A stretch of DNA of 64,000 nt. Source: Geosiphon pyriformis uo1. Its lineage: Eukaryota > Fungi > Glomeromycota. Of this stretch, positions 2,769 to 36,776 are shown piece by piece. Location: positions 310,001 through 374,000 of the forward strand of contig JAAOMT010000523.1 of the NCBI GenBank assembly GCA_016748015.1, read 5' to 3'. Position 1 is the stretch's first letter. Each line of letters opens with the position of its first letter. The position numbers and the translations under genes are program-made. The notes beneath the pieces were generated by a model that saw only the letters and a list, made by a program, of their open reading frames with translations, searched no databases and was not told where the DNA came from.

Positions 2769-2922
2769 AAAGGTGAATTCTTCTAAAACGTATAATTTTG
2801 TTATGATCTTTATGATACGTCTTTGAGAAGTAATCTTTTAAAAGCTGAAGGGTATTATAAATATTATACATATACAAATGAAAAATGACCTATTATTTGA
2901 AGAATTAATCGAATGAGGTTAG

Positions 2923-9300: not shown

Positions 9301-12300
9301 TGCAACACCCCAAACTTACTGCAAGTAAGAGAAATTCAATCCAAAAAGATCTTAGAAAGAATCTTGTAAACAGTGTTACTGAAGGTTTTTGGTCTTTTTT
9401 CTTGAATGTTGTAAATGTCTGTTGGTTGCAAATTCACGTTTTCTAGAAGTAGTTGAACCTTCAATAACTGAATTTATCTTCAAATTATTTCCTATAATTT
9501 GAACTGCTGAGCTTGTGAGTAGAATGGCCAATTCTGTGCCAGTTACTTTATGTAGTTACATTGTAGTAAACATCAACTTTTTCCCAGGAATTGCTCATCT
9601 AAAAGCTTATCAAAATGTGTAGTTATTTTGCTGTGAAAGTCAACTCTTCTACAGAAATCTTGTCTGTAGGCTACCCTAATGATTATAGTAAGAAAATAAA
9701 AAAAAATAAAAGAAATGTAAAAGAAATTGAATTTTGTCAAGGGAAATGTTTTCTATCTAGACCTGAAGTCACTAACAGTTTACTGAAATTGGTAGTTAAT
9801 CAATTTCAAAACGTTAGTTGGGTTTTGGGGATTTTCCAAGTGCAATAATTAAAGAATTTGGTTTTTCAAATTATTTGATATTTATTTTTTTTTGTGTGTG
9901 TAGAAATGGTTTTAAGTGATAAATCTAAAGTAAGATATATTTTCTTGAAGAGAAAAGCTCTTCTTTTATACAACTTGTTGTAGTACTAGTCTATGAACTT
10001 GCACTTTTTCTCTTTGCTCAAATTTTGACAAACTAAAGATACATTTTGATGAACTACAAGTTATTTTGCTGAACTATTAATTAATTTGGATGAACTATTC
10101 ATAATTTCGGCGAATTTCTATAAATTTTGGTGAATTTCTTATAAATTTCGGCAAATTTCTGTAAATTTCGGCGAATTTTTGAATGTTACAAAGTTCAGGG
10201 TATTGTGTAATTTGATCATCCTACTTTCTGTTATACTAATTGGATTATTTAATTGAATTGTGATATGTGATAATTGATTAAATAATAAATGATAATTTGA
10301 AATGATATTAATATACTAATTAATTATAGGAATTATAAGAGTAATTTCATGCTAATTAATAGCTAAAATTCTACTGGTAACAACAGTTTTTAGTAGAGCA
10401 ATAGGGCAAGTATTTGTCAAAACACCATTCTAATTATAAGGTTTAGATATTATAGAGACTTATGTCTTTCTCCACAAAACTGGAACTATGCTCATTCTTA
10501 GGCACAAATTTAAGAGATCCAACAACTTCTGAGAATGACTTCATTACAATGCTTCCATAATTTATTAGGAATACCACTAAGACCAGCAGTTTTCCCATCT
10601 GGTAAATGTTTGACAACCTAAAAAAGCTCATTAAAACCAATAACATTCATAACACCAGAGAAAGTATTATTATCTACATATTCTAAAGGAGCATACTGAT
10701 AAGACCAAGAAACAGAAAGGGGTGTAAACACTGACTGTTCTCTGGTCTATTTTTCCATTATCACATTAACTTTGGATTTAACTTCACCAGGATCTAAAAC
10801 AAGTTCATCATCTACCACCAAATAGTCAAAGACCACCTTGTAAAAAGACTTATCCAAAATACTTTTGATCATACAACCTTTGTTTATGCAAAAATTTTCC
10901 ATCTTTTTATCAATGGTATGCCTAATTGCTGTAACTTCAACAGCCTTAAACTTATGCATCTTGGAACAATGGTAACTTTTCTTAAATCTGGACAGACAAA
11001 CAAAAATTTCTATACTGCTGGCACTATTATTTATTATGTTTCAAACTTCAAGAGCCTTATTTTCATTAGCAATTAACCAAGCATTGAGAAGAAAACCAGT
11101 TCTAGAAGCATTACCAAACTGAAGAAACTTCACCAATTTAGTAACCAGTAGTTCCAGTTTAAAAAATTTTAAAGATTGTTTGTTAGAAAAACATTTGATC
11201 TTATGAAACCAATGTCTAAAGAATGTTTTATTAGCTGAATCAACCAACACCTTCACCAACAAGAACCACATAGAATCAAAATTTCTGCCAACACTAGTGA
11301 CCAAAAACTCATTAATTATGGAAGAAAACTTAACTAAAGAACAATCCTTAAAATGAGCTTATTTGAGACTGTCTGCATCTGCAATTTTGAACTTCCATCA
11401 ATTTTTATTAGCTTGCTTGTGCAAACTATTTAAATAAACATCTAAAAGCTCACCCAGACCAACTAACACCACAACAGCCTTGTGATTAGTGTTAAAATAA
11501 TCAGAGACAGAAGCAACAATCTGACCAGCAACTGTCAAAGACAAACTATCACTAACAAAAATGTAATTAATTGTTTTTTCAACACATCTTAAATTGCTCC
11601 ATGTTGGAGCCCTGACCAACTGGTGTGCACCAAATAAGTTGGCCAAACCCAGATCCAAACAGAACCTAAAACTTGCACTTTTCTTAGAATCATTCTCATT
11701 GAAGTTACCATTCAAGACCACAAAAATACTGGAGTTCAGAGCCCTTACAATAAAAGAGTTGATTTTCACAGCCTGACCAAATCTAGTTCTAGAGAATGCA
11801 CCAGCATATAAACCCAAAACTGTAACTAAGAGTTTGTTTTTAAAGAGGAGACACACTGAAATAACCCGACCAGGGACTTCCTTAACCTTAGAAACATGGC
11901 AGACCAAAAAATTGTTCATAATAATGGCCATTCCAGCATCAAGAAATTTTTTGTCCAAACCAGATGAAAAAATTCTGATACCATTAAACTTGTTCATAAT
12001 TCAAGGTCTACAACCAGACTTCAACTTTGTTTCAATAACAATTGAGACCATATTTCTAGATTCTACATGCCAATACACAATGTTCTTCTGCTTTGTAGAA
12101 TTGTTTATGCCTTTGATGTTACATGTTGCAATCTTCTAGGCTAACTCACTTATTGAGAAAGAAATTGGAAGTGCATGCTACCAGCCAGGACCAGACTGTC
12201 AAGATAAGCTGACAAACTCAAAACTGAAGTGGAAAGACTCTCCAACATATTTTCAAATTTAACCATATTAAGGGGGGAAGAAGATTTCAAAAATGCAGCA

Positions 12301-16765: not shown

Positions 16766-17746
16766 TGTTACTGGAGGTTTTTGGTCTCTTTTCTTCAATA
16801 TTATTAATGTTAATTTGCTGTGAATTTATGTTTCCAGGAAGTAGTTGGACCTCCAGTAACTGAATTTATTCTCAAATTATCTTCTATAATTTGAACTTGC
16901 TGGACTTATAAGTGAAATGGCCAATTCCGTGCCAGTTGCTTTGTGTAATTACATTGTAGTAAACGTCAACTCTTTCCCAAGAATTGCTTGTCTGAAAGCT
17001 TATTAAAAATGTGTAGTTACTTTGCTGTAAAAGTCAACTCTTCTACAGGAATCTTGTCTGTAGGCTACCTTAATAATTATAATGAGAAAATAAAAGAAAA
17101 ATAAAAAAAATGTAAAAGAAATTGAATTCTGTCAAGGGAAACGTTTTTTATCTAGGCCTGGAATCACTAACAGTTTACTGAAATTGGTAGCTAATCAATT
17201 TTAAAACATTAGTTGGGTTTTGGGGATTTTCCAAGTGCAATAATTAAAGAATTTGGTTTTTTGAATTTATTTGATATTTATTTTTTTTTGTGTGTGTAGG
17301 AATGGTTCTAAGTGATAAATCTAAAGTAAGATACATTTTCTTGAAGAGAGAAGCTCTTTTTTTATACAACTTGTCATAACATTATTCCATGAACTTGAAC
17401 TTTGCTCTTTTCTACAATTTTGCTGAACTAAAGATACATTTTGGTAAACTACAAGTTATTTCTGCGAACTATTAAATATTTTGGTGAACTATCAATTATT
17501 TCGGTGAATTTCTACAAATTTTGGCAAACTTTTGAATGTTACATATTTCGGGGTATTGTATGATTGATTATTGCAATTAGGTTATATTTGTGTTATGTAC
17601 AATTTGAATTATTAATTAAATGATAATTTTGGACATTTTGCTAATGTAATAAGTAATAATTTAAAATAATAATATATGTTAATTAATGATAGAAATTATA
17701 AAGATAATTTCATGCTAAATAATATCTCTAATTTCATCTGGTAACA
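16766..17746 (-). repeat. 3' LTR of Gypsy A (981 bp)
   Basis: TGTTAC...GTAACA; adjacent PPT; direct repeat of 35797-36776. Confidence 0.95.
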
Positions 17747-18434
17747 TAACCTCTTCCTCAAGACTGAGCTCCGTCAAAGTCCAAGTACTGTCTGTAATTT
17801 CCAGATAGTAATTCAAGATTACTGAAGAAATTTGGTCTGAAAATTTTTGAAATTCCAGTTCTGTGAGCTTTCCAATGTATTAAATTTTCAAGGATTGAAA
17901 AATTGGGTTTTGTAGAACGTTTTCACAGGTGTGAAATAGGTCATAAAGTCTAAGAGCAGCTCTGAGCTTGTAGCAACTGTTTGTTGGTCCAGCTGTTGTC
18001 TTGAATTCATTGTGGAGTTGTTTCTGAATAGCTTCTTTTGTGAGATTTGCTGTTGTAAGTTCTAGTTTTCATTCGTAGAGTGTTTTTCCAATGTGGAAAT
18101 ATCTATAGATTGGAGAGTATTCAGTGCTTTTCTCATTGAGACACAGTTGAAGTCTTTGTTGAATTGTAGCATTTGGTGGAATACTAATTGGAGTGAGCAT
18201 TAAGTTTTCTCTTAAAGCAAGCTTTAAAAGTTCTGGCAGGTGAATTCCAAAATAACTTCTTGTATTCTTTTTATAAGGGTGATACTTCTGTGAATTTGGA
18301 GCTAAATTTGTGACTATTTCTGTTTAAGTATAATTAATATGGTTTCTAGTAACAGTAATGGATAATTCAGATATTGTTTTTAAAGCTAACATTAGTTTTT
18401 GAGATAATTGTTGAATGTTTTGAGGAATAGTCAT
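17715..18434 (-). pseudogene. Extra ORF3 of Gypsy A downstream of integrase (240 codons, 3 internal stops), function unknown
   Basis: Hand translation MTIPQNIQQLSQK...PIYRYFHIGKTLYE*KLEL...YKLRAALRLYDLFHTCENVLQNP...IGKLTELEF...EEVMLPDEIRDII*. Homologous to 26707-27528. Confidence 0.7.
17747..17759 (-). other. Polypurine tract of Gypsy A
   Basis: Minus strand reads GAGGAAGAGGTTA directly before the 3' LTR TGTTAC. Confidence 0.85.
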
Positions 18435-18582
18435 TATAAGAGATTTGAAATAAAAGAAAATTATTTTTTGGTGTGTGGGTTTTTATGTTATTTTTGTTTT
18501 TCAGTGTGCTTTGTTTTGTTTTTGTTGTGAAATTGTTTCTAAATTATAAAGAAATAACTATAGTAAAATTGAAATTAAGTGT

Positions 18583-21500
18583 TCAAGTTGGGGGTTGTTC
18601 AATGACAACTATTGGTTCTAAGTTTCGGGTAATATCTTCGGGATTGATTAAAGGAGAATGTATACCAATTTGTGGAATTAATAGTTCAGGATTGTTTTTG
18701 GAATTATAGTGTTTCAAATGATCTCCATGTGCAACTTTTGCTAGGATTTTGTCATCAAGTCTTAGCTTGTATGATCTGTTGCCTAGAACTTTATGGATAA
18801 AGAATGGTTTATCCCATTTATTTTCAAATTTTCCACTCCATTGTTTTTCAGCTTTAGTTCTGTGTAAGAGAACTTTGTTTCCAATTTTAAGTTCATTGAT
18901 AACTGAAGGCAATTTGTTGTCATGCCATTCTTTTTGTTGAGCTTGAAAGTGTTCAATATGAGTGGCTGCTATTTGTCATTTTTTTTCTAACATGCTAAGC
19001 AGAGTGTAGGCTTTTCATTGAAGCATTTCCTGGAAATTGTCTTCACTGATTGGTTGTGCTGGATATGTTTCTATTGTTAAACTAATTGGTAATGTTGCTG
19101 TCTTTCCATAAATTAAATCAAATGGTGTATGTTTTGTGGTATCTTGTTTTAGTGTCCTATATGTTAGTAACACTGATAGAATAAAGATATCCCATTTTTG
19201 CTCAAAATCAGTTAAAACTTTGGCTAATGATTTACACAGTGTCCTATTGAAATGTTCTACAAGCCCATTTGTTTGTGGATAGTAGGGCAAAGATAATGGT
19301 CTCTTGACATTAAATTGTTCACAAATTTTCTGGATTAAATTGTTCACAAAATGTGTTCCTTGATCAGATAAAAGTTCTATTGGGCATCCATGTCTACAAA
19401 TGATATCTTCATAGATGAAGTTTGCTACTGATTTTGTATCTGCTTGTTGAATAGTTCTGGTTTCAGGCTATTTGGTGAGATAGTCTACAGCTACTGCAAT
19501 ATAATGGTTTCCTTGGTTTGTGATAGATAGTGGTCCGACTAAATTGATACCAATTCGGTCAAAAGGCTGTTCAACTTTGATTGGGTTTAAAAGTTCTGTA
19601 GGGCAAGTTCCTTCTTTTCTTTGACAACTATTACAAGACTTAATGTATTCATAGATGTCTTTTCTCATTTGAGGCCAAAAGTAATATTTTAGTGTTTGCT
19701 GGGTGGTGCTGTCCTTTCCTAAGTGTGCTAATAAAAGGTCTGAGTGCATGTTATATAAAATGGTTTTTTTTTCATGTTCTTGTATTAATCTGAGTGGATT
19801 GTCTGGGTTTCTGAAGTTTCAATAATAAATCATGTTGTTGTGTAAGAAGTATTGTTTGGCTTGTTGTTGTAACTGATGTTTTTCATCTGGAGACCAATTT
19901 GTTGAGATTGATAATGTCTTCAAATATTGTTTAAGATTGTTGTAGTTTTCAGGGTTCATTGTTTGTTGTTTTGTTGCTATTAATTCAAATGAGTGTTGGT
20001 TTTGTGTTCTAATCTTGTCTCATTCTTGAGAGACAATCAACATTGGTGTAGAGTTTTTCTGGTTTATGGTGTACAATGTATCAGTAGTTGGCTAAAAATT
20101 CTGTCCATTGGGTTTGTTTGGTGTTTAGCTAAGTATTTTTGTTCTGAAGCCATTTGAGTTCAATATTATCAGTGATAATATCGAATTCTTTTGGCCAGAA
20201 ATAAAGGTTGAAATAATGTAGGGCCCAAATTACAGCTGTTATTTCCAATTTAGTAGCAGGATAATTTTTTTTGGCTGGTTTTAATGTTCTGCTGGCATAA
20301 GCAATTACTCGCTCATTTCTATGGTCATCTAATTGTGACAAAATCACACTGAAAACAGTGTAAGAAGCATCTGTGGCTAATCAAAATTGGTTACTGAAGT
20401 CTGAATAGGTGAGAATTGGAGCTGTTGTCAGCTTTTCCTTGAGAATTTCAAAAGCTTTTTGGTGTTCAGTAGTCTATTTATATTCAACATTTTTAGTGAT
20501 GAGCTGGTTGAGGGGTTTTGCAATTTCTGAGAATCCTTTGGTAAACTTCTGATAGTAGAATGCTAATCCAATAAATTCTCTTAGTTCTGTGGTATTTCGA
20601 GGAGTTTTGAAATTTTTGACAGTGTTTATTTTTCCTGGATCAGGTTTGATTCTATTTTTACTAACAATGTGACCAAGAAAGGCCAAACTCGTTTTTCCAA
20701 AGTAGTATTTTTCAATGTTCAGTTTCAATCCTGCTTTCCGTAATCATTGAAAAACTTTTTGCAGGTGTTTTAAGTGTAATTCAAAAGATGGTGAATAAAC
20801 ATCAGTATCATTGAAATAGACAACTACTGATTTCCAAAGAAGGCCTTTGTAAACAACATCTATGAGTCTTTGGAATGTTGCTAGTGCATTGCATAATCCA
20901 AAAAGCATTATGTTGAACTCATAATTTCCTTCTTGAATGGTGAATGCTGTTTTGGGGCGATCTTCGGGATCCATGGCAACTTGCCAGTATCTATTCTCTA
21001 AATCTAATGTCAAAAAGTATTTGGACTTTCCAAGAGCATCTAGCATGTCATCAATTTGAGGAAGAGGGTAGGCATCTCCAATAGTGACACTGTTGAGTTG
21101 TCGATAATCAACACAAAATCGTATCTTTCTATTTTTTTTTTAATTAAGACCACAGGTGAGGCCCATGGACTCATTGATGGTTGAATAAGCCCATTGTTGA
21201 GCATCCGTTGTATTTCTTCATGGATAAATTGGTGACTTTCTGGAGTAACTCAGTAGGCTTGTTGTTGCCTAGGTTTGGCATCTCCTGTGTAGATTTAATG
21301 TTGAACCAAATTGGTTCTTCCTAAGTTATTGTTGTTTTTGGCAAAGATATTGGCAAATTCTGCAATTAGCTCTTTGAACTGGTTTTGTTGTTGTGGTTCA
21401 AGTTGTCCCATGTTGATTTGAGATAGTTTTTCCATAACAACATGGTAGTTTTTGGAGCTGGAGTTTGGGTTGATTTTTGGTAGTGAATGTCCAATAATTT

Positions 21501-23700
21501 CAGAGAAATTGGGGACTGTTTGGAGTAATTCTTGTTGAAAGATATTACTGTGAATAACTCCAATTTCTAAGTTATTTAATAAAACTATGGGGTAATTATT
21601 GGGGTTGTAAAAAGTAACTCGGATTTTCTTTGTTCCTTTTGGAATGTAGATATTTGGGATCAAGATATTATGTTCCAAGCAGATTCATTCATTGGACTTA
21701 AAAATTTGTTGGGTGATTGTTGGCTTTGGGCAGGTATAGATTTTGGAGTGTTCTTTAAAAGATGAAATAGTAATTGGTTGGAGAAGGCATAAAATCTGGT
21801 GAGACTCATTCTGTTTATTGAGAGCTATGTTTACTGGAACTGTGAATCGTCTAGTTGAACCAAAACCTTGTGTTCCTCTTTTGCTTTTTCCCAATTGTTC
21901 TCTTTGATTGACTAACTGTAAACCCGAAATGTTGATTAAGGGTAAATAGATAGCTTAAGCAATTTTTTCGGCATGTTCAATTTTGAAAGGTTTATTGGTT
22001 TCATTTTGGAGTATTACTGTTATATTACCAGTATATTCAGCATCGATTATTCCTCCTCTGACATTGATTCTTTTGCTTGCCAGAGAGGACCAGGAGGCAA
22101 TTTGAACTATTGCTCCTGGCGGAATTTCGAGAGCAATTTTGAGGTTGATTTTTGTGAGAGATTTGGGTTTGAGAACAAGAGTATTCTTGTCTGGATTATT
22201 TAGGTCATATCCAGCATCAATTTCATGTGCTTTTTCAGGTTTTATTCCTTGTCCATTGTTGTTGAAGTATTTGAGTTGTAAGGCAGGCTGATTTTTGATG
22301 AAATAGATGAGTGTTGTTTCAATTTCTTCTGTTGCTTCAGGTTCTCCAAATTCAATTTTGTTTTCATTGTTTTCACTAAGCAGAAGAATGCTAAGAGCAT
22401 AGCATTCAGGGCACCATTGTTCATTGCAAGGCATTATGCATTCTTCACACAATTTAATGTTCATTTGCTCTAGCCATTGGGCTTGAGCTTCTTTGGTCGG
22501 GTAAGTGTGACTGGCAATTTGGTAATATATTTTTACTTCATCTTTGTAATTGTATCCAGTGATTTCAAAGGTGCATGCAATATATTCTGATTCTTTTATT
22601 TGACGAACATTTTCTTGAGTGGCTCCATTGATTAAAGTCATTGCTAGATTAAAAATCATTTTGGCATTGTGAGGGTAATGATACAGTTTGTTGAGGGCGC
22701 TATTGTAAGCAGTATTGAAAGAGGTTTCTCTTGTTACTTTTTCTGAAATTAAAAGGGCATATTGACATGTTTGATAACAGACTTCTCCTTTGAATGCAAC
22801 ATCAATCCAGTTACATTCATCAGGTAATTGTTTTTCACAAGTAAACAGGGCATTCTATTCCATTTTTCACTTCTTTTGACTAGGTGTCCTCATCGTTGTC
22901 AGTGGCAGGATTTGCAATAGTAACAGATATGGTTTCTGTATTCTTCCTCGGGTGAAATACAAGCTCTCATTAATGAGAGTTTCTTGTGGCAATCTTTGTA
23001 TTTGAGTGGAATGTAAGGGCATTGTTTTTGTGGTTCTGGTTTTGAATAGGGGACATTCCATCTGGGTATTACTGGTTTTTTTGTTTCAAAAGAATTGTTT
23101 GTTGAAAAATACTGTTGTTCAGTTTCATCAGCCCAATTGGAGGTTGATCCAAGTGCCATAAATGTTTCAATGATGGGTTTTTCTTTTTCTGGTTCGAATT
23201 CAAAAGCCAGGGCTTTTTCGGAATGTTTGTTGAATGTACCACAAGTGGCAGGTACCTGGGCATGTTGTCCTTAGTAAGAGATTGTTAACTCTTATGTCTC
23301 CCAATTCAGATTAGCATTGGCTTTTTAAAGCCAATTGTTTCTGACAAGAGCTTGGTATTAAGAAGCATCCATGACCAGAACTTTAATTAGAATGGTGATT
23401 CCATCAATTGTGAATGGGAAGTTGTCAATTTCTTCTACTGGAGTCTTTTTCATGCCATCAGCAGTGACAATGATTGTCTGAGCTGGTCGGTCAACATTCT
23501 TTTTTAGCTACTGCATTAATTGATATGTGATAATGCTTCTGGCGAATTCACTATCTAAGATTAAGCAAATTGGCTTTCCTTCTGCTTCAGCTTCTGTGTA
23601 CATTGCAGTGATGGCTTTTTGCTTGTTAGCTGCTGCATTGCTAAGCAAAAATGGTGATTTGTTTGCTTCAAATTCGAAAAGGAATATATCTAAAAGGTTG
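18583..23700 (-). pseudogene. Gypsy A pol: protease, Cys-rich domain, dUTPase, RT, RNase H, integrase
   Basis: ORF fragments 23508-23960 (PR), 21955-22659 (dUTPase), 20744-21046 and 20474-20728 (RT), 20129-20347 (RH), 19468-19749 (IN HHCC), 19015-19347 (YYPQTNGLVE), 18583-18912 (GPF-like motif). Confidence 0.92.
21850..22270 (-). pseudogene. dUTPase domain in Gypsy A pol
   Basis: Trimeric dUTPase motifs: AGYDL (I), ASWSSLA (II, RSS), GGIIDAEYTG (III), KIA*AI (IV), RGTQGFGST (V). Confidence 0.93.
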
Positions 23701-23959
23701 GCATTTTCAGCAATTCTGGCTGATGGGATTATGGTAGAAGTATAGAAAAGATTTTGTTGTTGTGCTGCAGCTCTATCTTCTGAGAGTGCAGTATGGCGAA
23801 AATCCTGTTCTTCTGGCATCATAAGATAACTAGGTTGAGTATGATAGTGGTTGGATCTTGGTTGAGCTGAATTTCGGGGAACCAATTGGTTGTTCGAATT
23901 AATTCTATTGTTGTTTACTTGGTATTGGTTTTGTGGTGTAAACTGATTTTGCGGAATCA

Positions 23960-25630
23960 ATCTTCAAGCAGGCACTTGATAATGTTGTGTGGGTGGTTGT
24001 TGGTATTGCTGTTAAATTGGCTGTGGAGTGGGCTGATAATAGTTACTTTGGTATTGGGGTCTTGGTAGATAGTAAGCTGGTGGTGGTGGTTGATAATAAG
24101 ATTGCTGTGGTGGAGGGTAATGTTGATTACTCCTATTTTGTTGGTCTTATTGTAGCTTTCTGCAATCTCTTTTCCAGTGGCCAGGAATTCCACAGTAATA
24201 GCAATTCTGAGGCTGGTTATTAGAAAGTAGTACAAAGTTATTTTGATTTTGTCTTTGGGGTGGTTAATATCTTTGGGATTGTTGTTGTTGTTGTTGGTTG
24301 GTGAAGTAGTTTTCAACTTTCTTGGTTAATTGGTCAATCTTTTCTTCAGCTGCTGAGCTGGTTTCTCCAATAGCCAGATTAACAAGTTTGGTATGGTTGG
24401 CTTTTTCCATGGCCATTTCATAGTTTTTTGCCTGTTGAATAGTAGTGGCTAAATCTTCTGGTGCATGTGGGCAAACTTTCTTGATAAGTTTGTCTTTTAG
24501 TCCAGCAATGAATTGATCCAAGATTTGTGCATTGGAGTAGTATTCATTGGTTTCCAATTGCCGAATTTTTCTAAGCAGTTTGTTGAATTTCCCAAGATAG
24601 GTCATAACTGATTTACTTGGTTCTTGCTTGATATTTCGGAACCAATTTTGAAGAGTAATGGAAGTGTTATTGTCAGTGAACTGTTCTAGAAAAGCAGTTT
24701 TAAATGCTTCCCAGTATTCTGGTAGAGCTTCCAAGTTTTCAAACCATTCATCAGCCATTCCTTGTAGGAAGTATGGAATTGCTTTTAACATTCTGGCAGT
24801 GTTCCAACCATTTGTATCTCCTGTTTTTGAGACTTTGTCAAGCCATTTTTGAGGACTGGTTTTGCTGTCTTCTCCTGTGAACTCAGGAATTTTTGCAATA
24901 TATGTGGAGGCCATTTCTTCTTTGTTTTCTGAGTCTTCTGTTTCTTGTTCTGATTTGGTCTCTTCACTTCGATTTTCTGTTAAGTAGTCAATAAGGTTTG
25001 TGCTGGTTAATATTGGTTTCTGTTGTTGAATAGAGCTTTTGGATGACTGGAAATCTTCTATTCTTGAAAACCGAATAAGTAGTGAACTTGGTGTTTGTGG
25101 TTGAGCAAGTGAAGCTGGAAATGGTGTGATTGAGAGTGGTAATTTAAAGCTGGTTCCTTGTTCTGGAGTTTGTAAATGTTTGGCAGTGGTTTTAGGTGTA
25201 TTGGGAGTAGTTCTGAGTTTTTGTTTTTTTTTTCCTTTTCCTTCTTCTGTTTCCGATTTAAAACTAAGAGAAAATTTCTGTTCTACTGGGTAATTCTCTT
25301 CACAATACTGAATGATATTGAAGTTGAGTTCTTGGAAATATGTTTCAAGTGTTTGACTGTTAAAATCTTGAGTGTTTAGATGAGAGTGATGTACTAAGCT
25401 TTCATATAAGTTGTGTCTAACTTCTGAAATGTTGTAGTCTCCAAAAAGATAATTGTTGATGTGATTTTCAATGTACTGATAAAGTGTTTTTTTGAATGTT
25501 TCAATTCCATTTGGGATGTTAAATCTCTGCTTGCAGTGAATGTAGATTGACTGATAATACTCTAGAGTTCTTGAATCTGTTTGAGTTGCCACTTTTGAAT
25601 TTATTGTTGCTGTGTTATTTCTGTAAGAGA
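23960..25630 (-). pseudogene. Gypsy A gag
   Basis: 456-aa ORF with retrotransposon capsid-like region (IPEFTGED, LQGMADEWF, FIAGL). The CCHC knuckle at about 24160-24205 is in the same frame after one stop. Confidence 0.9.
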
Positions 25631-25634
25631 GCAC

Positions 25635-26706
25635 TGTTACAGGTAAACTTGGTGGGTATGGGAAATGGTAATGTTTGGTGCTCTCAATTATTGATGATGT
25701 ATCTTCCGCGTAATTCTGTTGGCTTAGTCTTGATTATTAATCTCTGAAGGTCTATTCCTGGATGTAAATTTACCTGTCGAGTTCTTTGGTTATAAGGCAC
25801 AAAGTTTGTCTTTTGTCGATTGCAATGTTTTTTGTAAATGTGAGCTCTCTTTTCCGAGCTAACAAGCACAGTTATTAGGATCTGGCATTGTCTTTTTACC
25901 CTTCTGGTAAGTTAACAAGATAAAGTTAATATCCAAAACTTAGAAAGAGCTTCCCTCTTTTACCAGGCTATCACGAAGTCTATTCCTAGACAGTTGATTT
26001 TACTATGTTGCTGCTCCACAAAAATAAAACAGAAAAAAAAAAGGAAAGAAAAAAAAAGAGAAAAAAGATAAATTAGTATTGTCAATTGCCATAATTAAGA
26101 GCGATTAGTCCAAATCGTTAATAGGTTCGAGACGGTTATGCTAAGAGCATCTGTTCTAGAACGGAGGCACGAAACAAGAGTTAATTCACGTAAATTCTAC
26201 AAAGTTCAAGAACATAAATTCGTGATTCTGATTTCTTTAATAATTGGTTTATTTCAGGAGATGAAATAGGGAAGATAATAAAAGATGAAGGGGTATGGAT
26301 ATTTTAGTTCTTGTCTAAAGGTTTGTATCTATCTGTTTGTCTTTTCTCACTTCTATAACTACTTGCTTTTATACATTCTTTTGGTTTTACAGAATTGCTT
26401 TCAATTGTCTTGCTATTGCTAGCTATTGTTTTGTTGTTTCTGTTATTGCTTCGTTTTTCTATGTTATTACTAGTTATTCTATGTTATAACACATTATCTG
26501 ATGTTATTACATGTTATTTTGTGTTATCCTGTATTATAACACATTATTCTATGTTATTGCCACGCTATTCTGTATTATCCTGCATTATAACATGTTATCC
26601 TATGTTATAACGCATTATCCAATGTTATTGCACATTATTCTGTGTTATGTCATGTTTTGGTCACGTTTCTTTATAACTTTGGATTGGTTTTTCTACTCGG
26701 ATAACA
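25635..26706 (-). repeat. 3' LTR of Gypsy B (1072 bp)
   Basis: TGTTAC...ATAACA (mutated GTAACA); direct repeat of 34707-35788; PPT at 26707-26722. Confidence 0.95.
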
Positions 26707-27528
26707 TTATCTCTCTTTTTTTAAAATTAAGCTCCTGCAAAACCATATGTATCTGTTATCATGGCTTTATTTGTGTAATGTTTTGATTGTTGCCTCGAGT
26801 ATTGTCTTTTGTAGGTCTTTGAACTGTTGATTGGTTATTCATTCTATGTTATTAACCATTATGGTTTTCATAAATCCATTCAGTAGTATGTTTGGGCAAT
26901 GTTGGAAGGTGGCATATAGTCGGTATGCTGCTTTGTAATGTAGGGTCAGATTGTTTTTCCCTACAAATTTTTCTACTTGTTGTATTGTTTCTTTGTTGAA
27001 TGTTTTCTGGCTGAGGTCTTCATATGGTGTTTTCAAGTTAAGCTGTTCTCCAATTTTGTAGAACCAATAAGTTGGAAAAAGTCTTTCTTTTCATTCCTGG
27101 GCATTGTCAGATGTCCACTCCTCTGTTTCAGGGAGTTCGGTCCCACAAGCTAAAGCTTTTTTTATTTTTTCGAGCTTAGGGACCAAGTATCTTCTTTTGT
27201 AACCTTTTTCTTGTTCTTTGCCTTCTTCTTTTCCATCTTCTGCCCAAAGGCAATTTTTCTTCCAACATTGTCTTTTGGGTGGTGGATAGAGGAATGTTTA
27301 GTTCTAATTGAACTTTCGTCCTCCTCTCTCCTGCTCTTATCTTTGTACCATATCTCTTTTTTTATTAATTGTTATTTCTATTTGAGATGCTTATTTTTGA
27401 ATTGTTTCAAATAATTGTCTAGATAATTTTAAATTGATCTGAAAGATCCATGTTGAAATTTCTATTGTTTCTTGCTGCTTTTTGGATGTTATATATATTT
27501 GAATTCCCCAATTTAATTTGCTGTCCAT
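26707..27528 (-). pseudogene. Extra ORF3 of Gypsy B downstream of integrase
   Basis: ATG at 27528 just after the integrase stop (27534-27532). Contains PTYWFYKIGEQL...LHYKAAYRLYATFQHCPNILLN...IE*LTNQQF, which aligns with ORF3 of family A. Has stops and a probable frameshift. Confidence 0.65.
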
Positions 27529-27531
27529 TGT

Positions 27532-30500
27532 CTACATTTTGATGATGATAATTGGTTCCAGATCTTGTGGTATATCTTCTGGTCTGATTAATGAAATTTG
27601 TGTTTCTAGTTGAGGTACTGATAATGATAATTCCTGTTTTACATGATAAATTTTTAACCGATTTCCATGCACTACTTTTTTTAAAATTCTGTCTTCCAAT
27701 CATAATTTGTAAGCTCCATTTCCTAATGCTTCGTGTATGTGGAATAGACTGTTCCACTTTGGGTCGAACTTTCCACTCCACTGTTTTTCAGCTTTTGTAT
27801 GATGTAACAGTACTTGGTCTCCAATCTTGAATTCCATTGATTGTTTTGATAGGTGTTTATCATGTCTTTTTTTTTGTCATTTTTGAGCATGACTAATATT
27901 GTCAGCTGTTGTTCTTCGATTGTTTTCCAATGTTTCTATTAGCTGGTATGTTTTTTGGTGTAAAATAGCTTCAAAATTCTCTTCATTGATTGTTTCTGTT
28001 GGATATGATGGTATCACTTGTTCAATTAGTAATGTAGCTTTTCTTCCATAAACTAGTTCAAATGGTGTGAACTGAGTCATATTTTGTTTCAATGTTCAGT
28101 ATGCAAAGAGTACAAAAGGTATAAATAAGTTTCATTCTTGTCTGTTTTCATGACTTATTTTTGCTAATGCTTCGCACAGTGTTTTGTTAAATTGTTCTAT
28201 CAGTCTATTTGTTTGTGGGTGGTATGGTGACGATAAGAGTCTCTTTATTCCAAACCGTTGGCTTAGTTCAGTCAGCGTATTATTAACGAAATGTGTTTTC
28301 TGATCAGATAATAATTTTTTCGGACATCCATGTCAGCAAATTAGGTCTTAATGCACAAATTCGGCTACTGTTTTGGTGTCAGCCACTTGGATTGCTCTGG
28401 CTTCTGGCCATTTTGTAAGATAGTCTACAGCTACAGTGATATAGCAATTTCTTTGGGATATAATTGAAAGAGGTCCAACCAAATTGATCCTAATTCTATC
28501 AAATAGATTTCCAACTGGAATGGGTCGAAGTGGTTCTGTTGATCTTGCTCTTCCTTTTCACTAGCATGTATCACAATTGAGCATGTATTCGAAAATGTTT
28601 TTGTATATTGTTGGCCAATAGTATAAGTTTAATGTTCTTTTGAGGGTAGCATCTTTGTTAAAGTGTTCTGCAGTCAGATCTGAGTGCACGCTATATAGTA
28701 TAGTTTCTCTTTTACTGTTCTTGATTAGTCATTGTAAGTTGGGGTGGTTTCAACATTCTCGTCAATATAGTTGGTTGTCTTGAATAAAATAATTTCAGGC
28801 TTGTTTTTGTATAGTACTCTGTTTCTGTTGAGATAATATCTCCTTGAAATGTAGTGTCGATAGGTACTAATGTAGTCGTTGATAAGTAAGTGTGTTCATG
28901 GGTCTGAAATTAGGTTTGTGGTATTCTTAACAAACTGTTGGCATTGGTGTTCTTGGATTCTTCCTTGTAATAAACTTTGAGTGAAAATTGTTGCAGATAA
29001 GTACTCCATCTTGCATATTTTCCTTCTAGTTGTGAATTGTTGAGTAACCAAATAAGTCTTTTGTGGTCAGTATATAGATTAAATGGTTGACTGAGATAAT
29101 GTTTCCAAGTCTGTATGGCCCAATAAATGATGAGACATTCTAGATCTGTTGTGCTGTAATTCTTTTCTGCTGGACTAGTGCTGTGACTAGCATAGACAAC
29201 TGGGTGTTCTCTATTGTCTGGTCCTATCTGTAATAAGACTGCTTCTAGAGCATTTTTTGAGGTGTCCGTAGCAACAATAATCTGTTTAGTGAAATCTGGG
29301 TAAATCAGAATTGGGGATGTGATCAATCGTTGCTTAAGATAGTCAAATGCTTTCTGTTGATCTTCCTTTCACAAGTATGGTACGTATTTGGACAACAATT
29401 GATGGAGTGGTTTTGTGATGTTCAAGAAACCTTTGACAAATTGATGATAATATCCTGCCAATTCTAGAAATCCTCGTAATTTTTTGAGGTTGATTGGGGC
29501 TAAAAAATCCTTGACTTTTTGTACTTTATCTGGATCGGGTTTAACTCTGTTCTTGCTGATTACATGTTCTAAGAATTTTAATTTGGTTTTTCCAAAGAAG
29601 CACTTCTCGGGATTGAGTTTCAATTCGGCACTACAAAGACATTTGAAGACTTGTTGCAGGTAGAGCAGATGGTTTTCGAATGTTTCAGAGAACACATTTG
29701 TGTCATCTAGGTAGACTACTACTGATTTCCAAAGGATTCCTTTATATACTACATCCATCAAGCATTAAAACATGGCAGGAGCATTACAAAGTCCAAAAGG
29801 CATTACATTAAACTCAAAGTTTCTGTCTCGAGTGGTAAACGCTGTTTTTCTTTTGTCTTTGGGGTCCATTTCAACTTGCCAGTAACCACTTACTAAATCT
29901 AATAACAAGAACTATTTCTTTTTCCCTAGATTGTCCAGAATTTCTTGGATGAAGGGAGTGGGATAACTATCTCCTTGCATGACACTATTTAGTTTTCAAT
30001 AATCTACACAGAATTGCACTTTTCCGTTTTTCTTGGTGACCAAGACTACTGAAAAAGACCAAGAGCTTAACAATTCTTTGATTAGGCCGTTATCAAGCAT
30101 CCATTGCACTTTTTGCTTAATTAGGTTATTGCCAGATGGAAGTATGCAGTAAGTTCGTTGCTTAATTGGTCGAGCGTCTCCTGTATCAATCTAATGCTTC
30201 ACGATGTCAGTGCATCCGAACTCATTTTTGCTGGCAAAGACATCGGCATACTGATTTAGAAGAACTTTAAGTTGCATTTGTTGCAAAGTACTTAAATTTC
30301 CTAAATTCAATTTATTGATCTCTTCTGGTGTGAACAAGTAACTTTCTTTTGGCAAATTCCATACTTGTGAGGTAATGTCACAGAATAAGAATAATTGTGT
30401 GAAATCTGAAATGAACTGGGGTTTTTCAGGATTCTGAATATCTGTGGATATGAAACTGATGAGGGTCTCTTTGGGAATTTCAATGACATCTTCTGTTGGG

Positions 30501-32520
30501 TTGTGGATGGAGATTTTGAAGTGTTTATGGACTTTGGCTGGTAGGTATAGATTAGCAACATTGGCTAGGAAACAGATTTTGGGACTGGCTTCGAATAACA
30601 AAGCTTGATCTTGGATCTTTCAATTCACCTTGAGGATGTATTGTCAGTATGGGGGAATAGAAATGATGGTATTGGTATTGATAAATTCTACCTGGTCACT
30701 GTTTTTCTCCATAAAATTAACTGGTACGTTTTCTCTTCCACTTGATCCAAACCCATTGATTTCTCAGGCAGTGAGACCTAACTCTTCTTGGGTTGTTATT
30801 GGGGTTAATTGTGGTATTTTGACTAGGAGTAGGAAGATAGCTTGGGCAATCTTTTCTTGTGATTCTATTTTGTAGGGTCTGTTCGAATTGTTCTGTAGCA
30901 TCATGATAATGTTTTCCATGTAACCAGCATCAATGATTCCCCCTTTTACGTCGATTTTTTTCTTGGCTAGACTAGATTGAAAGGCAACTTGTACCATTGT
31001 ACTAACAGGAATTTCTAATACTATCTTAAGATCTATTTTTACGAAGAAATGTGGGGCTATAATAATGGGTGATTGTCCGGAGTATCGTAAGTCAAAACTG
31101 GTATTAGTGTCATGCACTCTTTTGGAGCAGATTCCTTCCTTATTGTCACTGTACTATTTTAGTTCTAGTTCTTTAAATAGGTTGGAATACACAAGATACT
31201 GTTCTGTTTCGGTATCCTCAGTTGAATCTTGAAACGACATGTTCTTGGTGATCAATATTTCTTCTTCAGGCTCAGATAGTTTGGTGATTGAAAACAGTAT
31301 TCTTGGAGGCAGATTGAACATAAGATCACATTTGTTACAGTACTGGAAGTGACAGGAGATCAAATAGGAATTACACAGTTTGGTATTCAAATCAGCTAAC
31401 CTTTGCTCCTGTTCTTCACAAGTTGGGGCCAATTCCTGATATTAGTTCTGAAATCATCCTCGAGATAGTCGGGTTTATTATATTCAGGTGTCCAAGGGTT
31501 GTTCTTGATTTCTTGTATTTTTTTGGGTGTGGTGCCTTCAGCCTTGGTGCTTGCCATTCTCCAGATTTCATGGTCATTGTGTAGATAACTGTCCAGCCTG
31601 TTAAGTGCTCGTTTCCAAGCGTCTTCAATAGGGGTTCTCTTTCATACTCAATTGTTGATTAATATGATGTATTGACAAGCCTCGTCACATGTTCTTCTTC
31701 TGCCAGGCACATTATTCCAGAGTCCTTCATCTGACAGGATTTCACCACATGCAAGGCATGGCATGTTGTCCCACTTGTCTTGTTGTTTTGGTCATCCAAA
31801 TCTTTCCAGTAAACAAGGTCTGCAATAATATTTGGTGGCAGTGGGCCATTTTTTGTTGTTCCCAATACATACACTCATAGTGAATAGTTTTTTTCCACAA
31901 TCGACACATATTAGTCTTGGGAGTTGGTAAAATAAGTTTTTTTGGTCTGAGGTTACATATCTTAGTGATGATGATTGGGGTTCTTCTTCGGCTCTGCCTT
32001 TTTCTTTTTTTTCCCAGGTTGGTGGTGGGGGTAGTTTAGTTCGATAATCATCCGTTCATGAAACCTGATAGGTCTCGATGGTTGGTGGCATTGATGTGTC
32101 TTCAAATTCAATAAGGGGTTCTTTGGTACATTGGGTCTTAAAGTGTTTGCACATAGCTGGGACTCAGGCATGCTGTCCGTTAAATGTGAGTTGAAGTTCT
32201 TGGGTGTTCTAGTCAAGAGTAGCATTGGCTTTTGACAACCAATCATTTCCTACTAGAGCTTAATATTGAGTAGCTTCCATGACAAGTACTTTGGTAGGAA
32301 TTTGGATTCTATTAATCTCAAAGGGGAAGTTGTCAATTTCTCCTATCGGGGTTTTTGTGTTTCCATTCGCTGTAATGATTCGGGTGGTAGCAGCATGGTC
32401 TATTCGGTGACCTAGTTGGTCCATGAGCTGCTTCATGATTATGCTACCAGCTGATCTGCTGTCCAGGATTAATTTAATGTCTATTTCTCTGACTCTGACA
32501 TCGGTATATAGGGCCATTAT
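27532..32520 (-). pseudogene. Gypsy B pol: protease, Cys-rich domain, dUTPase, RT, RNase H, integrase
   Basis: ORF fragments 32260-32517 (PR), 30764-31117 (dUTPase), 29369-29761 (RT YLDD), 28910-29326 (RH, ATDTS), 27877-28092 (IN, TPFELVYGR). Confidence 0.92.
30735..31150 (-). pseudogene. dUTPase domain in Gypsy B pol
   Basis: TSFDLRY, AFQSSLA, GGIIDAGYM, KIAQAI, then *EINGFGSSG (motifs I-V). Confidence 0.92.
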
Positions 32521-32529
32521 TGGTTTATC

Positions 32530-34687
32530 CTAATTGATGGCTGCTCCACTAAAAAGGCTATGGGTGTTCAAATTATCAATGTCAAAAGAAAATATGGTGG
32601 CTAAAGTGGTGTCTTCGGTAATAGTGGTTGGTGGGATATTGCTTTTTGTTTGCTTGGAAGGTTGGGAGATTTGTTCTATATTTCTCCCTTCCACAGGTGT
32701 AGATTTATCAAAACCCTGGTCTTTCATAAGACCAAGATAGGAAGCTTGATTCAGGTATCCAGTTGGTATTGATTGAGATGGTCCACTGTTGGTTTGCACC
32801 TGATTGTTATTGAAATTCCTCCATCTCTGATTATAGTCTATAGCTCGAGGTCTGGATGGGCTGTAAAGGGAAGTTTAATAGTGAGGGATTACTTGTGTCA
32901 TTGGTGGTGATTGATAATAATTCTGGGACAGTGGTTGAATGTATGGGACTTGTTGTACATATAGGGGCAGTTAATTCTGAGGTATGGAATATTGGGGTAC
33001 TATGTTTTGCTGATATCTGAGTTGCTGGTATGAGTTTCCTTGATTTTGGTCCATGATCTTCTTTCTGCAGTCATAGGCAATGTGTCCAGATTTCTGGCAG
33101 TAATAACAGTTACAGAGATCAGATCTCCAAGGTTGTTGCTGTTGCTGACAGTTCTGTTGTTGTGGGTATCTGCTGTTGTTGTTATTTTCTCTCCGTTGGG
33201 GTAGTTGGTAAGTTCCTATAGTTCCGGCTAAGAATTTCTCAATTTTCTGAGTTAGTTTTTTACTCAATTGGGTTATCTTTGCATCGATGTCAGAGGTTCC
33301 ATTAATGGCTAAATTAACGGCTTAGATATGGTTTGCTTCTTGTTTTGCAGACTCAAAATTGCGAGCGAGAGTGATAGTGTCTTGTAAACTGGTCGGATGG
33401 TGGGGTCTTACAGATTTTAGAATACTACTCCACAATCCTTTAATGAATTAATTAAGAACTTGCGCTGTGGTGTAGTAGTCCCTTTCAATAGCTAATATTT
33501 GACGCAGAATTTGATTGAATTGTCCGAAATAAGTAGTTACTGCTTTGTGATCTTTTTGTTTAATTATGCTGAATTGATTCTGCAATCGGATTAATGTATT
33601 GGGGTCACAGAAGTATTGCAAAAATGTGAGTTTAAATTCGGTAAAAGAGGTAGACTTCTCTGTCAGGCTTTGGTACCATGAATTGGTAGTTCCAGTCAGA
33701 AAGAACAGCAGTGCCTAAATTGTGTGGTCATTGTTTCAATCATTAGTGGTAATTGCTTTTTCGGTGTCTACGATTCAAGAATATACATTATCTTCTTCAT
33801 TAAAGAATTTTTCCAATTTAGTGATATCCCAGTAAGTCATGATTTGGTTAATGGGTGAGATATTACTGGTTATGTTTAAAGGGATTGGTGTCCATATATT
33901 TGAGTGTTCTCTGGGTGCTAATGCTGGTTGCTTTCCTTTGTTGCTTGAACTAATAGGTTGTAAGATAGCTGTTTCTTCCATCAAGGGAGATGCTAATTCT
34001 ACTAAGTTTTGTGCTGGTGGCTGTTCCCAAGTTGATGGGTTTCTTTTTGTTTGACCAGCTGCTGGGGTAAGATTTCCAAACAGCAATCCGTATTCTCCTA
34101 GTGATTTGGTCCAACTGTGTTGATTCCAAGGGTGTGGATTTCCAGGAGTTCATGGTGTTTCCAACTGGGTTTTTAGGAATGGGTTGAATACAATTCTACT
34201 TTGGGGTGTCTGATGGTATAATGGAGTTGTTGGGGAGAGAACTCTTGGTTTCTTGTTGACTGTAGACTTGGCTTGGGCAGTTACAGGATTGTTGGATTCA
34301 TTTTCATATTCCTCAGGGTCAGATTCCACTGGTTGTTGTACTTGAGAGAATCATTGTGCCACATAATATTTAATGTCTGTATCAATTATGTGCAGAGTTT
34401 CAGTGATTGCTCGGGTAGTCATGGCTGTTGAGTACCCTAGTAAGCTTTGATGGATTTGTTCTCCAAGTTTTTCTGTATCAGTTGCGTGGCCTAACAAGCA
34501 GTTAATTTTTGTGTTAATATAGTTACAAAAATCACTTTCTGCGTAAGTGGTTTTTGCTGGTATTCCTAGGTCTTTTCGAAAGTATTGAAATAGTGCTTTT
34601 CCGTACAAGAAGTGGTCCTTTCCTATTGTTCCAATCGTCACCACTTTTATGTATTTTTGGGGGTGCTCTGTCTCTGTGGATTTATAA
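32530..34687 (-). pseudogene. Gypsy B gag (fragmented)
   Basis: ORF pieces 34351-34644, 33775-34086, 32971-33267 (CCHC knuckle), 32530-32799; homologous to gag of A. Confidence 0.85.
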
Positions 34688-34704
34688 CCTCACAGGGAGC
34701 ACCA
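34688..34704 (-). other. Primer-binding site of Gypsy B (TGGTGCTCCCTGTGAGG)
   Basis: Starts 2 nt after the 5' LTR with TGG. Its complement CCTCACAGGGAGCACCA resembles a tRNA 3' end (elongator Met or Ile-UAU type; not resolved). Confidence 0.85.
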
Positions 34705-34706
34705 AA

Positions 34707-35788
34707 TGTTACAGGTAAACTTGGTGGGTATGAGAAATAGTAACATTTGGTGCTCTTAATTATTGATGATGCATTTTTCGTGTAATTCTGTTGGCTTAGT
34801 CTTGATTATCAGTCTCTGAAGGTCTATTCCTAGATGTGAATTTACCTGTCGAGTTCTTTGGTTATAAGGCACAGAGTTTGTCTTTTGTTAATTGCAACAT
34901 TTTTTGTAAATGTGAGCTCTCTTCTCTGAGCTAACAAGTGCAGTCATTAGGGTCTGGCATTGTTTTTTCGCCTTTCTGGTAAGCTAACAAGATAAAATTA
35001 ATATCTAAAACTTAGGGAGAGCTTTCCTTTTTTACCAGGCTATCATGAAGTCTATTCCCAGACAGTTGATTTTACTATGTTGCTGCTCCACAAAAATAAA
35101 ACAGAAAAAGAAAGAAAAAGAAAAAGGAAAGAAAAGAAAAGAGAGAAAAAATAAATTAGTATCATCAATCACCATGATCAAGAGCAATTGGTCTAAATCA
35201 TTAATAGATTCGAGGCAGTTATGCTAAGAGCATCTGTCCTAGAATGGAGATATGAGACAAAAGTTAATTCATGTAAATTCCATGAAGTTCGAGAACATAA
35301 ATTTGTGATTCTGATTTCTTTAATAATTGGTTTATTTCAGGAGATGAAATAGAGAAGATAATAAAGGATGAAAGGGTATGGATATTTTAGTTCTTGTCTA
35401 GAGATTTATATCTATCTGTCTGTTTTTTCTTACTTCTACAACTACTTGCTTTTATACATTCTTTTGGTTTTACAAGATTGCTTTCAATTGTCTTGCTATC
35501 ACTAGCTATTGCTTTGTTGTTTCTGTTATTGCTTCATTTTTCTATGTTATCACTAGTTATCCTATGTTATAACACGTTATCTGACGTTATTACATGTTAT
35601 TCTGTGTTATTCTGCATTATAATATGTTATTCTACATTATTGTGTGCTATTTTGTGTTATCTTGCATTATAACATGTTATCTTACATTATAATGCATTAT
35701 CCAACATTATTGCACGTTATTCTGTGTTATGTCACATTTTGGTCACGTTTTTTCATAACTTTGGATCAGTTTTTCTACTTAGGTAACA
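34707..35788 (-). repeat. 5' LTR of Gypsy B (1082 bp)
   Basis: TGTTAC...GTAACA; PBS adjacent. Confidence 0.95.
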
Positions 35789-35796
35789 GCACCAAA

Positions 35797-36776
35797 TATT
35801 ATTGGAGGTTTTTGGTCTCTTTTTTTCAATGTTGTTAATGTTGATTTGCTGTGAATTCATGTTTCCAGAAAGTAGTTGGACCTCCAGTAACTGAATTTAT
35901 CCTCAAATTATAGAAGATAATTTGAACTTGCTGGGCTTATAAGTGGAATGGCCAATTCCATGCCAGTTGTTTTGTGTAGTTACGTTGTAGTAAATGTCAA
36001 CTCTTTCCCAAGAATTGTTCATCTAGAAACTCACTAAAAATGTGTAGTTACTTTGCTGTGAAAGTCAACTCTTTTACAGAAATCTTGTCTGTAGGCTACC
36101 TTAATGATTATAATGAGAAAATAAAAGAAATGTAAAAGAAATATAAAAAAAATTGAATTCTGTCAAGGGAAATGTTTTTTATCCAGGCCTGGAGTTACTA
36201 ACAGTTTACTGAAATTGGTAGCTAATCAATTTTAAAACATTAGTTGGGTTTTGGGGATTTTCCAAGTGCAATAATTAAAAAATTTGGTTTTTCAAATTAT
36301 TTGATATTTATTTTTTTTTGTGTGTGTAGGAATAGTTCTAAGTAATAAATCTAAAGTAAGATACATTTTTTTGAAGAAAGAAGCTCTTCTTTTATACAAC
36401 TTGTCATAACACTATTCCATGAATTTGAACTTTGCTCTTTTCTACAATTTCGCTGAACTAAAGATACATTTCGGCAAACTACAAGTTATTTCTGCAAACT
36501 ATTAAATATTTTGGTGAACTATCAATTATTTCGGCAAATTTCTACAAATTTTGGTGAACTTTTGAATGTTACATATTTCGGGATATTGCATGATTGATTA
36601 TTGCAATTAGGTTACATTTGTGTTATGTACAATTTGGGTTATTAATTAAATGATAATTTTGAACATTTTGCTAATATAATAAGTGATAATTTGAAACAAT
36701 AATATATGCTAATTAATGATAGAAATTATAAAAATAATTTCATGCTAAATAATATCTCTAATTTTGTCTGGTAACA
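35797..36776 (-). repeat. 5' LTR of Gypsy A (980 bp)
   Basis: TATTAT (mutated TGTTAC)...GTAACA; followed on the minus strand by TT-TGGTGC, the first part of the PBS. Confidence 0.95.

What the first reader, a model, noticed from the sequence alone, without database searches (positions are those of the whole stretch)
22400..23030. Unassigned multi-zinc-finger-like domain (about 200 aa) between protease and dUTPase (homolog 31330-31920)
Hand translation. B: LICVDCGKKL..YYCRPC..WDNMPCLACGEIL..TCDEACQY..ALNRLDSYLHN..KLCNSYLISCHFQYCNKC. A (with one frameshift): LKYKDCHKKL..YYCKSC..WNRMPCL/TCEKQL..VCYQTCQY..ALNKLYHYPHN..KLCEECIMPCNEQWCPEC. Cys spacing and aromatic residues are conserved while the rest has diverged. 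I do not recognise this as a standard pol domain; it could bind nucleic acid or chromatin, or counter host defence (inference).
Basis: partly seen in the sequence, partly recalled or inferred. Interest (0 to 1): 0.75.

Follow-up and report, generated by a model that had tools for sequence, protein, structure and literature searches.

The report
Three-zinc-site domain in fungal Gypsy Pol
Two dead copies of a fungal jumping gene carry, between their protease and their dUTP-destroying enzyme, a real and selectively conserved 215-residue cysteine-rich domain that matches no catalogued family and likely works as a zinc-held adaptor during the element's own copying.

Summary
Confirmed. Two nested, decayed Ty3/Gypsy elements each encode a ~215-aa domain in frame between protease and dUTPase (A 23006-22402, B 31914-31328, minus strand; tblastx E 4e-29, no blastn match). 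Homologues are almost all Geosiphon pyriformis retroelement proteins, in at least seven subfamilies, plus two unnamed metagenome proteins; one is an uninterrupted protease-domain-dUTPase-RT frame. Thirteen cysteines (4+4+5) persist across groups 33-66% identical; codon positions show coding constraint; distances track protease and dUTPase. No significant Pfam, NCBIfam, PHROGs, PDB or Foldseek match. The model gives a treble-clef-like finger 1, a MYM/TRASH-spaced finger 2, a helical bundle and a C-terminal five-cysteine cluster. The domain is acidic and has no invariant His or Glu, which argues against an enzyme or a nucleocapsid-like chaperone. Best reading (0.4): a non-catalytic zinc scaffold that positions dUTPase or RT inside the particle; binding is untested. 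The scan earlier noted other Cys/His modules beside Gypsy dUTPases in other genomes; their one stated motif is absent here. An undescribed accessory domain in a known element architecture.

The parts
22402..23006 (-). Cys-rich accessory domain, copy A (subfamily A); one frameshift near 22842, two stops
22905..23006 (-). Finger 1, C-x2-C-x24-C-x2-C (first Cys decayed to Tyr here); predicted treble-clef-like
22765..22847 (-). Finger 2, C-x2-C-x19-C-x3-C running into a helix (MYM/TRASH-like spacing); holds the frameshift
22450..22764 (-). Helical bundle and acidic helices (best-predicted part, pLDDT 81-94 over model residues 91-150)
22402..22449 (-). C-terminal cluster C-x2-C-x3-C-x4-C-x2-C
31328..31914 (-). 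Same domain, copy B (subfamily B); three stops, one frame change
23268..23612 (-). Aspartic protease of element A, same frame as gag and the start of the Cys domain
21847..22275 (-). dUTPase of element A, same frame as the C-terminal part of the Cys domain
   Evidence: Pfam PF00692 E 9e-15
32176..32520 (-). Aspartic protease of element B
30734..31162 (-). dUTPase of element B
   Evidence: Pfam PF00692 E 1.5e-11
16766..36776 (-). Ty3/Gypsy element A: LTRs 35797-36776 and 16766-17746 (92% identical), gag, PR, Cys domain, dUTPase, RT, RNase H, integrase, 3' ORF; interrupted by element B
25635..35788 (-). Ty3/Gypsy element B: LTRs 34707-35788 and 25635-26706 (88% identical), inserted in the primer-binding site of A with target duplication GTGC

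Best explanation
This is a conserved ~215-residue domain of the Gag-Pol polyprotein of a dUTPase-bearing fungal Ty3/Gypsy lineage, with three predicted zinc sites around a helical bundle, that likely acts as a non-catalytic protein-binding scaffold holding the neighbouring dUTPase or reverse transcriptase at the site of cDNA synthesis. Shown: it is coding, in frame with gag, protease and dUTPase, under constraint, and inherited with them. Inferred: it is made in equal amounts with Gag and packaged in the particle; the cysteines bind about three zinc ions; short conserved islands in the otherwise unalignable linkers (for example ETY/ETF upstream, QY/IY/VN downstream) are protease sites; it works through protein contacts. 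Both copies in this window are dead.
For: Position is fixed: 233 of 287 hits have protease upstream and/or dUTPase downstream; 51 of the other 54 are under 400 aa; no hit inspected was a host gene. P0166 (unnamed ENA protein, 1064 aa) reads protease-domain-dUTPase-RT without a break. Domain distances track protease (Spearman 0.80, 152 proteins) and dUTPase (0.81, 92 proteins), permutation maxima 0.11 and 0.19; trees of 28 proteins both join subfamily A with the ENA pair. 13 Cys kept. No invariant His or Glu; the PHD His is Glu in both ENA proteins. Net acidic. Finger 1 models like half a LIM domain, rmsd 1.7 A over 38 residues; LIM fingers are protein adaptors (recalled). Precedent for a zinc module that positions dUTPase: betaretroviral NC-dUTPase (PMC4531489, section 9 read).
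Against: No binding partner was tested. Fold matches are at background level (best Z 6.0 whole domain, 3.9 N-part), and pTM is 0.44. The domain is less conserved (31-47%) than protease (60-63%), dUTPase (47-62%) or RT (65-69%). Adjacency to dUTPase may only reflect a linker that tolerates insertions. Candidate cleavage sites also flank its dUTPase side, which would separate the two. The protease tree is poorly resolved (10 label changes against a minimum of 6), and the groups were defined on the Cys domain.
Confidence: 0.4

Rival explanations
1. A nucleic-acid-binding module: finger 1 and the first helices bind the element's RNA or cDNA and anchor dUTPase there, like the nucleocapsid part of betaretroviral NC-dUTPase.
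For: Finger 1 is basic in P0166 and P0013 (pI 8.9, 8.7) with an invariant KKL; GATA fingers and HTH-like three-helix bundles occur among weak fold rows; same position, directly before dUTPase.
Against: Whole domain acidic (pI 4.7-5.8); finger 1 neutral in P0130; CCHC knuckle pattern in 1 of 287; both elements keep a separate CCHC knuckle in gag; fold rows are not significant.
Confidence: 0.25
2. A host-facing factor released by the protease that binds a host protein (silencing, chromatin or uracil-repair machinery), possibly as an acidic DNA mimic.
For: Faster evolution than the enzymes around it, acidic C-terminal half; CpG is depleted in both elements (observed/expected 0.19 and 0.33 against 0.85 in the host-gene stretch), so the host likely methylates them; MYM-type spacing occurs in chromatin proteins (recalled).
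Against: No PHD, RING or LIM pattern (0 of 287); no sequence or fold link to any host or viral protein; no test of positive selection was possible on decayed copies.
Confidence: 0.17
3. A cryptic zinc-dependent enzyme (nuclease or deaminase).
For: PC-x2-C and P-H-D motifs in 7 of 9 groups; top VIA row is part of a restriction enzyme (Z 6.0, rmsd 6.1 A, 74 residues).
Against: The His is Glu in both ENA proteins, one of them the only uninterrupted frame seen; 0 of 4 His and 0 of 24 Glu columns are invariant; deaminase pattern in 0 of 287; the VIA row is within background.
Confidence: 0.07
4. A diverged member of an already known family that the searches missed, or a folded spacer with only a structural role in polyprotein processing.
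For: 247 of 397 profile hits were not visible; no HHpred-type or AlphaFold-DB search was available; the alignment is shallow and made of decayed gene models.
Against: No significant hit in Pfam, NCBIfam, PHROGs, PDB sequences, PDB folds or BFVD; 13 conserved Cys are more than a spacer needs.
Confidence: 0.11

Closest known systems
dUTPase-bearing fungal Ty3/Gypsy elements: PosPlaTy3-5 of Postia placenta, also Phanerochaete and Tuber elements (PMC2864245; passages read)
   Same: Ty3/Gypsy pol with a dUTPase between protease and RT.
   Different: The passages read report no zinc-rich domain between protease and dUTPase (supplementary table not read). No chromodomain was seen here; clade membership was not tested.
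Betaretroviral NC-dUTPase (MMTV p30, MPMV) (PMC4531489; section 9 and passages read)
   Same: A zinc-finger module directly N-terminal to a dUTPase in a retroelement polyprotein, proposed to place the enzyme where RT works.
   Different: There it is the basic Gag CCHC nucleocapsid (81-95 aa), upstream of protease. Here it is an acidic, all-Cys 215-aa domain downstream of protease, and gag keeps its own knuckle.
Bdelloid Juno LTR elements (PMC5408684; passages read)
   Same: dUTPase between PR and RT with an extra zinc module next to it.
   Different: A single Zn knuckle after the dUTPase; here a larger three-site domain before it.
Treble-clef fingers: LIM halves, ZZ, GATA, ClpX ZBD; MYM/FCS/TRASH spacing (class names and spacing recalled)
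   Same: Finger 1 superposes on LIM halves (7d2t, 2xjy: Z 3.2-3.4, rmsd 1.7 A, 38 residues); finger 2 has C-x2-C-x19-C-x3-C (130 of 287 sequences).
   Different: No significant profile match (best LIM E 0.0038), full LIM pattern in 0 of 287, Z at most 3.9; a common small fold, not homology.
Badnavirus second Cys motif CX2CX11CX2CX4CX2C (PMC4926197; one passage read)
   Same: Extra all-Cys cluster in a reverse-transcribing element's polyprotein, ending in CX4CX2C.
   Different: Motif in 0 of 287 sequences; the paper places it in the coat protein.

Membership tests
Ty3/Gypsy LTR retrotransposon | LTRs with TG..CA ends, PBS, PPT, target duplication | tested here: met
   both elements; B has TSD GTGC; A's flanks TCAC/CTAC are imperfect and its 5' LTR end has decayed to TAATA
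Ty3/Gypsy LTR retrotransposon | Order gag-PR-RT-RNase H-integrase | tested here: met
dUTPase-bearing fungal Gypsy (PosPlaTy3-5 type) | dUTPase between PR and RT | tested here: met
   PF00692 in A, B and P0166
dUTPase-bearing fungal Gypsy (PosPlaTy3-5 type) | Same RT clade or same dUTPase origin | not tested
   no reference RT or dUTPase sequences were fetched
LIM domain | Eight-ligand double-finger pattern (recalled) and Pfam PF00412 above cut-off | tested here: not met
   0 of 287; best E 0.0038 in 3 of 70 members
LIM domain / treble-clef fold class | Treble-clef fold of finger 1 | tested here: inconclusive
   Z 2.6-3.9, rmsd 1.7-4.6 A to LIM chains; model pLDDT 60.8 overall
MYM/FCS/TRASH finger | C-x2-C-x19-24-C-x3-C spacing (recalled) | tested here: met
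   130 of 287, including P0166; the rest are partial or decayed
MYM/FCS/TRASH finger | Profile or fold match | tested here: inconclusive
   not among Pfam rows for 11 members at E<=10 or the 25 of 52 families shown for 70 members; finger 2 modelled at pLDDT 41-62
RING / PHD finger | C3HC4 or C4HC3 ligand pattern (recalled) | tested here: not met
   0 of 287 each; no conserved His among ligands
Retroviral NC-dUTPase | Basic CX2CX4HX4C nucleocapsid fused to dUTPase | tested here: not met
   1 of 287; acidic; gag knuckle separate
Retroviral NC-dUTPase | Stays joined to dUTPase after processing and binds nucleic acid | not testable with these tools
   needs protein work
Badnavirus second Cys motif | CX2CX11CX2CX4CX2C | tested here: not met
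   0 of 287
Zinc-dependent deaminase | HxE followed by PCxxC (recalled) | tested here: not met
   0 of 287
CxH-x12-CxxC module beside dUTPase (earlier scan notes) | CxH-x10-14-CxxC | tested here: not met
   1 of 287, absent from P0166; no look-alike by sequence

The most novel reading that the evidence does not exclude
The slot between protease and dUTPase in fungal Gypsy elements repeatedly recruits unrelated zinc modules for one job, and this acidic three-zinc domain is a retrotransposon-encoded regulator of uracil handling (a dUTPase partner or a DNA-mimic inhibitor of host uracil-DNA glycosylase), the transposon counterpart of Vpr or Ugi.
Probability: 0.1. Interest if true: 0.78.

Novelty: new variant of a known kind. 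Interest (0 to 1): 0.42.

Why it matters
Fixed extra domains in LTR retrotransposons are considered rare and can expose host-element interactions (PMC9289625, abstract passage). This one was kept through the radiation of a lineage in a genome that is 41% LTR sequence (PMC11952901, passage) and inflates its 'hypothetical protein' set by hundreds of gene models. An uninterrupted copy (P0166) makes the domain directly testable. If it regulates dUTPase or uracil repair it would explain why fungal Gypsy dUTPases often have zinc modules beside them. As it stands it is one more undescribed accessory domain in a known architecture.

Tried and rejected
Family searches: Pfam, NCBIfam, PHROGs, PDB sequences: nothing significant for the domain (best: LIM E 0.0038, YhfH 0.0088). 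Folds: Foldseek PDB and BFVD had 0 matches at E<=0.001; VIA best Z 6.0 and 3.9; absence does not show a new fold. DNA context for relatives: two scans of metagenome contigs and one of viral contigs (70) found none. A search with the P0166 domain among 585-1862-aa proteins returned only itself. No RNA holder listed; no evidence either way. No whole genome, ESM Atlas result or complex model is available for this report, so genome-wide copy counts, language-model look-alikes and dUTPase binding remain open. I first read the region as one compound element with two gag-pol cassettes; one search showed a nested insertion (B has its own LTRs, PPT, PBS and a GTGC duplication), so that was dropped. A weak likeness between finger 2 and B's 3' ORF is chance (hhalign probability 1.7). 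A second degenerate dUTPase after the dUTPase got no support (E 0.15). Literature: 10 searches found no description of this domain; subscription papers, including the Geosiphon genome paper, are largely outside the library, and supplements were not read.

Full report
Observation. Copy A runs 23006-22402 with one frameshift near 22842, two stops and a decayed first Cys. Copy B runs 31914-31328 with three stops and one frame change. The two are homologous as protein (tblastx E 4e-29) and not as DNA (no blastn hit). Codon positions 1/2/3 are 0.54/0.62/0.39 identical over 132 codons, like protease, dUTPase and RT, so the region diverged as coding sequence under constraint.

Context. Pfam places gag, dUTPase, RT, RNase H, integrase and a Tf2-type SH3 around the region. 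Self-comparison and end inspection show two complete Ty3/Gypsy elements: A (LTRs 35797-36776 and 16766-17746) and B (LTRs 34707-35788 and 25635-26706), B inserted in A's primer-binding site with a GTGC duplication. In both, gag, protease and the start of the domain share a frame, so the domain is part of one Gag-Pol polyprotein. Both copies are dead; CpG is depleted.

Relatives. The A-type query gave 131 proteins; all 120 listed are Geosiphon pyriformis hypothetical proteins. The B-type query gave 30 of 30 from the same species, one 98% identical to the window, so the window is likely from this fungus. A profile of 11 segments found 397 proteins at E<=0.001 among 1.84 billion; I saw the best 150. 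Of 10 looked up, 8 are Geosiphon and 2 are unnamed ENA proteins; the source of the other new hits was not checked, and 247 weaker hits were not visible. P0166 (1064 aa, 19-kb contig) reads protease 182-272, the domain 337-554, dUTPase 610-737 and RT without a break. The sequences fall into seven subfamilies of three or more members plus the ENA pair, 33-66% identical. Of 287 hits, 233 have protease upstream and/or dUTPase downstream; 54 have neither, 51 of them under 400 aa; the two flagged out of order and the three long ones are retroelement gene models, four of them running across two elements. Pairwise distances of the domain track those of protease (0.80) and dUTPase (0.81) (this mostly reflects subfamily structure). 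Trees of the 28 proteins with both parts join A with the ENA pair in both, though the protease tree is poorly resolved and holds one misaligned row, P0177. The simplest reading is one acquisition before the lineage radiated, then vertical inheritance.

Anatomy. Thirteen Cys are kept as C-x2-C-x24-C-x2-C, C-x2-C-x19-C-x3-C and C-x2-C-x3-C-x4-C-x2-C; 11 are invariant in the group majorities and two read Tyr in one small group. The first finger is not covered in one group and the last in two. Other Cys of subfamily A are not shared. No His or Glu column is invariant, and the His of the YPHD motif is Glu in both ENA proteins. The domain is acidic (pI 4.75, 5.78, 4.72); finger 1 is basic in two of three. 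AlphaFold2 with 96 rows gives pLDDT 72.8, pTM 0.44, with a confident helical core. No fold search gave a significant match. A model of the N-terminal 101 residues (pLDDT 60.8) aligns finger 1 with LIM halves, ZZ, GATA and ClpX fingers at Z up to 3.9, the level expected for a generic small zinc finger; finger 2 was poorly modelled. The linkers on both sides vary in length and give no tblastn hit but keep short islands that look like protease sites (inference).

Mechanism. Shown: coding, constrained, in frame, co-inherited, fixed position. Inferred: zinc binding, packaging with Gag, processing. I commit to a non-catalytic scaffold that positions dUTPase or RT in the particle (0.4); earlier scan note e1-7415948 proposed a similar role for a different module and shaped this wording, and is not independent support. 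Grounds are the lack of catalytic candidates, the net negative charge, the adaptor-type finger fold and the NC-dUTPase precedent (PMC4531489). Rivals are nucleic-acid anchoring (0.25), a host-facing factor (0.17), a missed known family or spacer (0.11) and a cryptic enzyme (0.07). Binding was not tested.

Comparison. dUTPase between protease and RT is known from Postia, Phanerochaete and Tuber elements (PMC2864245, passages) and bdelloid elements, where Juno adds a zinc knuckle after it (PMC5408684, passages). LIM, RING, PHD, Gal4, deaminase and badnavirus patterns match 0 of 287 sequences, and the gag knuckle 1 of 287 (patterns recalled except the badnavirus one, and the knuckle). Ten literature searches found no description of the domain; papers listed there but not cited were seen as listings only. 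The scan holds 13 earlier notes on zinc modules beside Gypsy dUTPases, of which I saw 8, all from other genomes; none matched by sequence look-up and their CxH-x12-CxxC motif is in 1 of 287 sequences here, so this looks like a separate module in a recurring slot. That could not be settled by profile comparison.

Verdict. A real, apparently undescribed accessory domain of a fungal Gypsy lineage, with an uninterrupted representative for bench work. New variant of a known kind; interest 0.42.

Noticed in passing
window 25635-35788 inside 16766-36776: Element B sits exactly in the primer-binding site of element A with a 4-bp duplication GTGC. Gene models P0059, P0050, P0185 and P0255 run from the pol of one subfamily into the gag of another, so such nesting may be common in this genome.
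   Followed up: partly
   Followed up: partly
window about 18200-17800 (A) and 27290-26800 (B), minus strand: Both elements carry a decayed extra ORF between integrase and 3' LTR; no tblastx similarity between them at E<0.99; not identified (my Pfam references for them were in the wrong frame).
   Followed up: partly
P0166 residues 741-880; window about 21850-21420 and 30730-30310: A second unassigned ~140-aa stretch lies between dUTPase and RT; not matched by a dUTPase profile (E 0.15).
   Followed up: partly
window 9374-10382: Solo LTR of the A family (81% identical) with target duplication ACAG, splitting a repeat whose two halves match 42603-39509 and 39517-37859.
   Followed up: partly
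window 53685-54476: A 386-bp 100% duplication around a 20-N gap at 54071-54090 in a LINE-like RT/RNase H element; likely an assembly overlap.
   Followed up: no
window 1-5029: Host genes: purine-synthesis GARS/AIRS exons (+) and a Mid1 calcium-channel component (-).
   Followed up: no
window 22370-23050: In one DNA run, 1832 contigs lie on the domain at 80% or more; 87 of 102 variable places are transitions, fitting methylation-driven decay of a high-copy family.
   Followed up: partly
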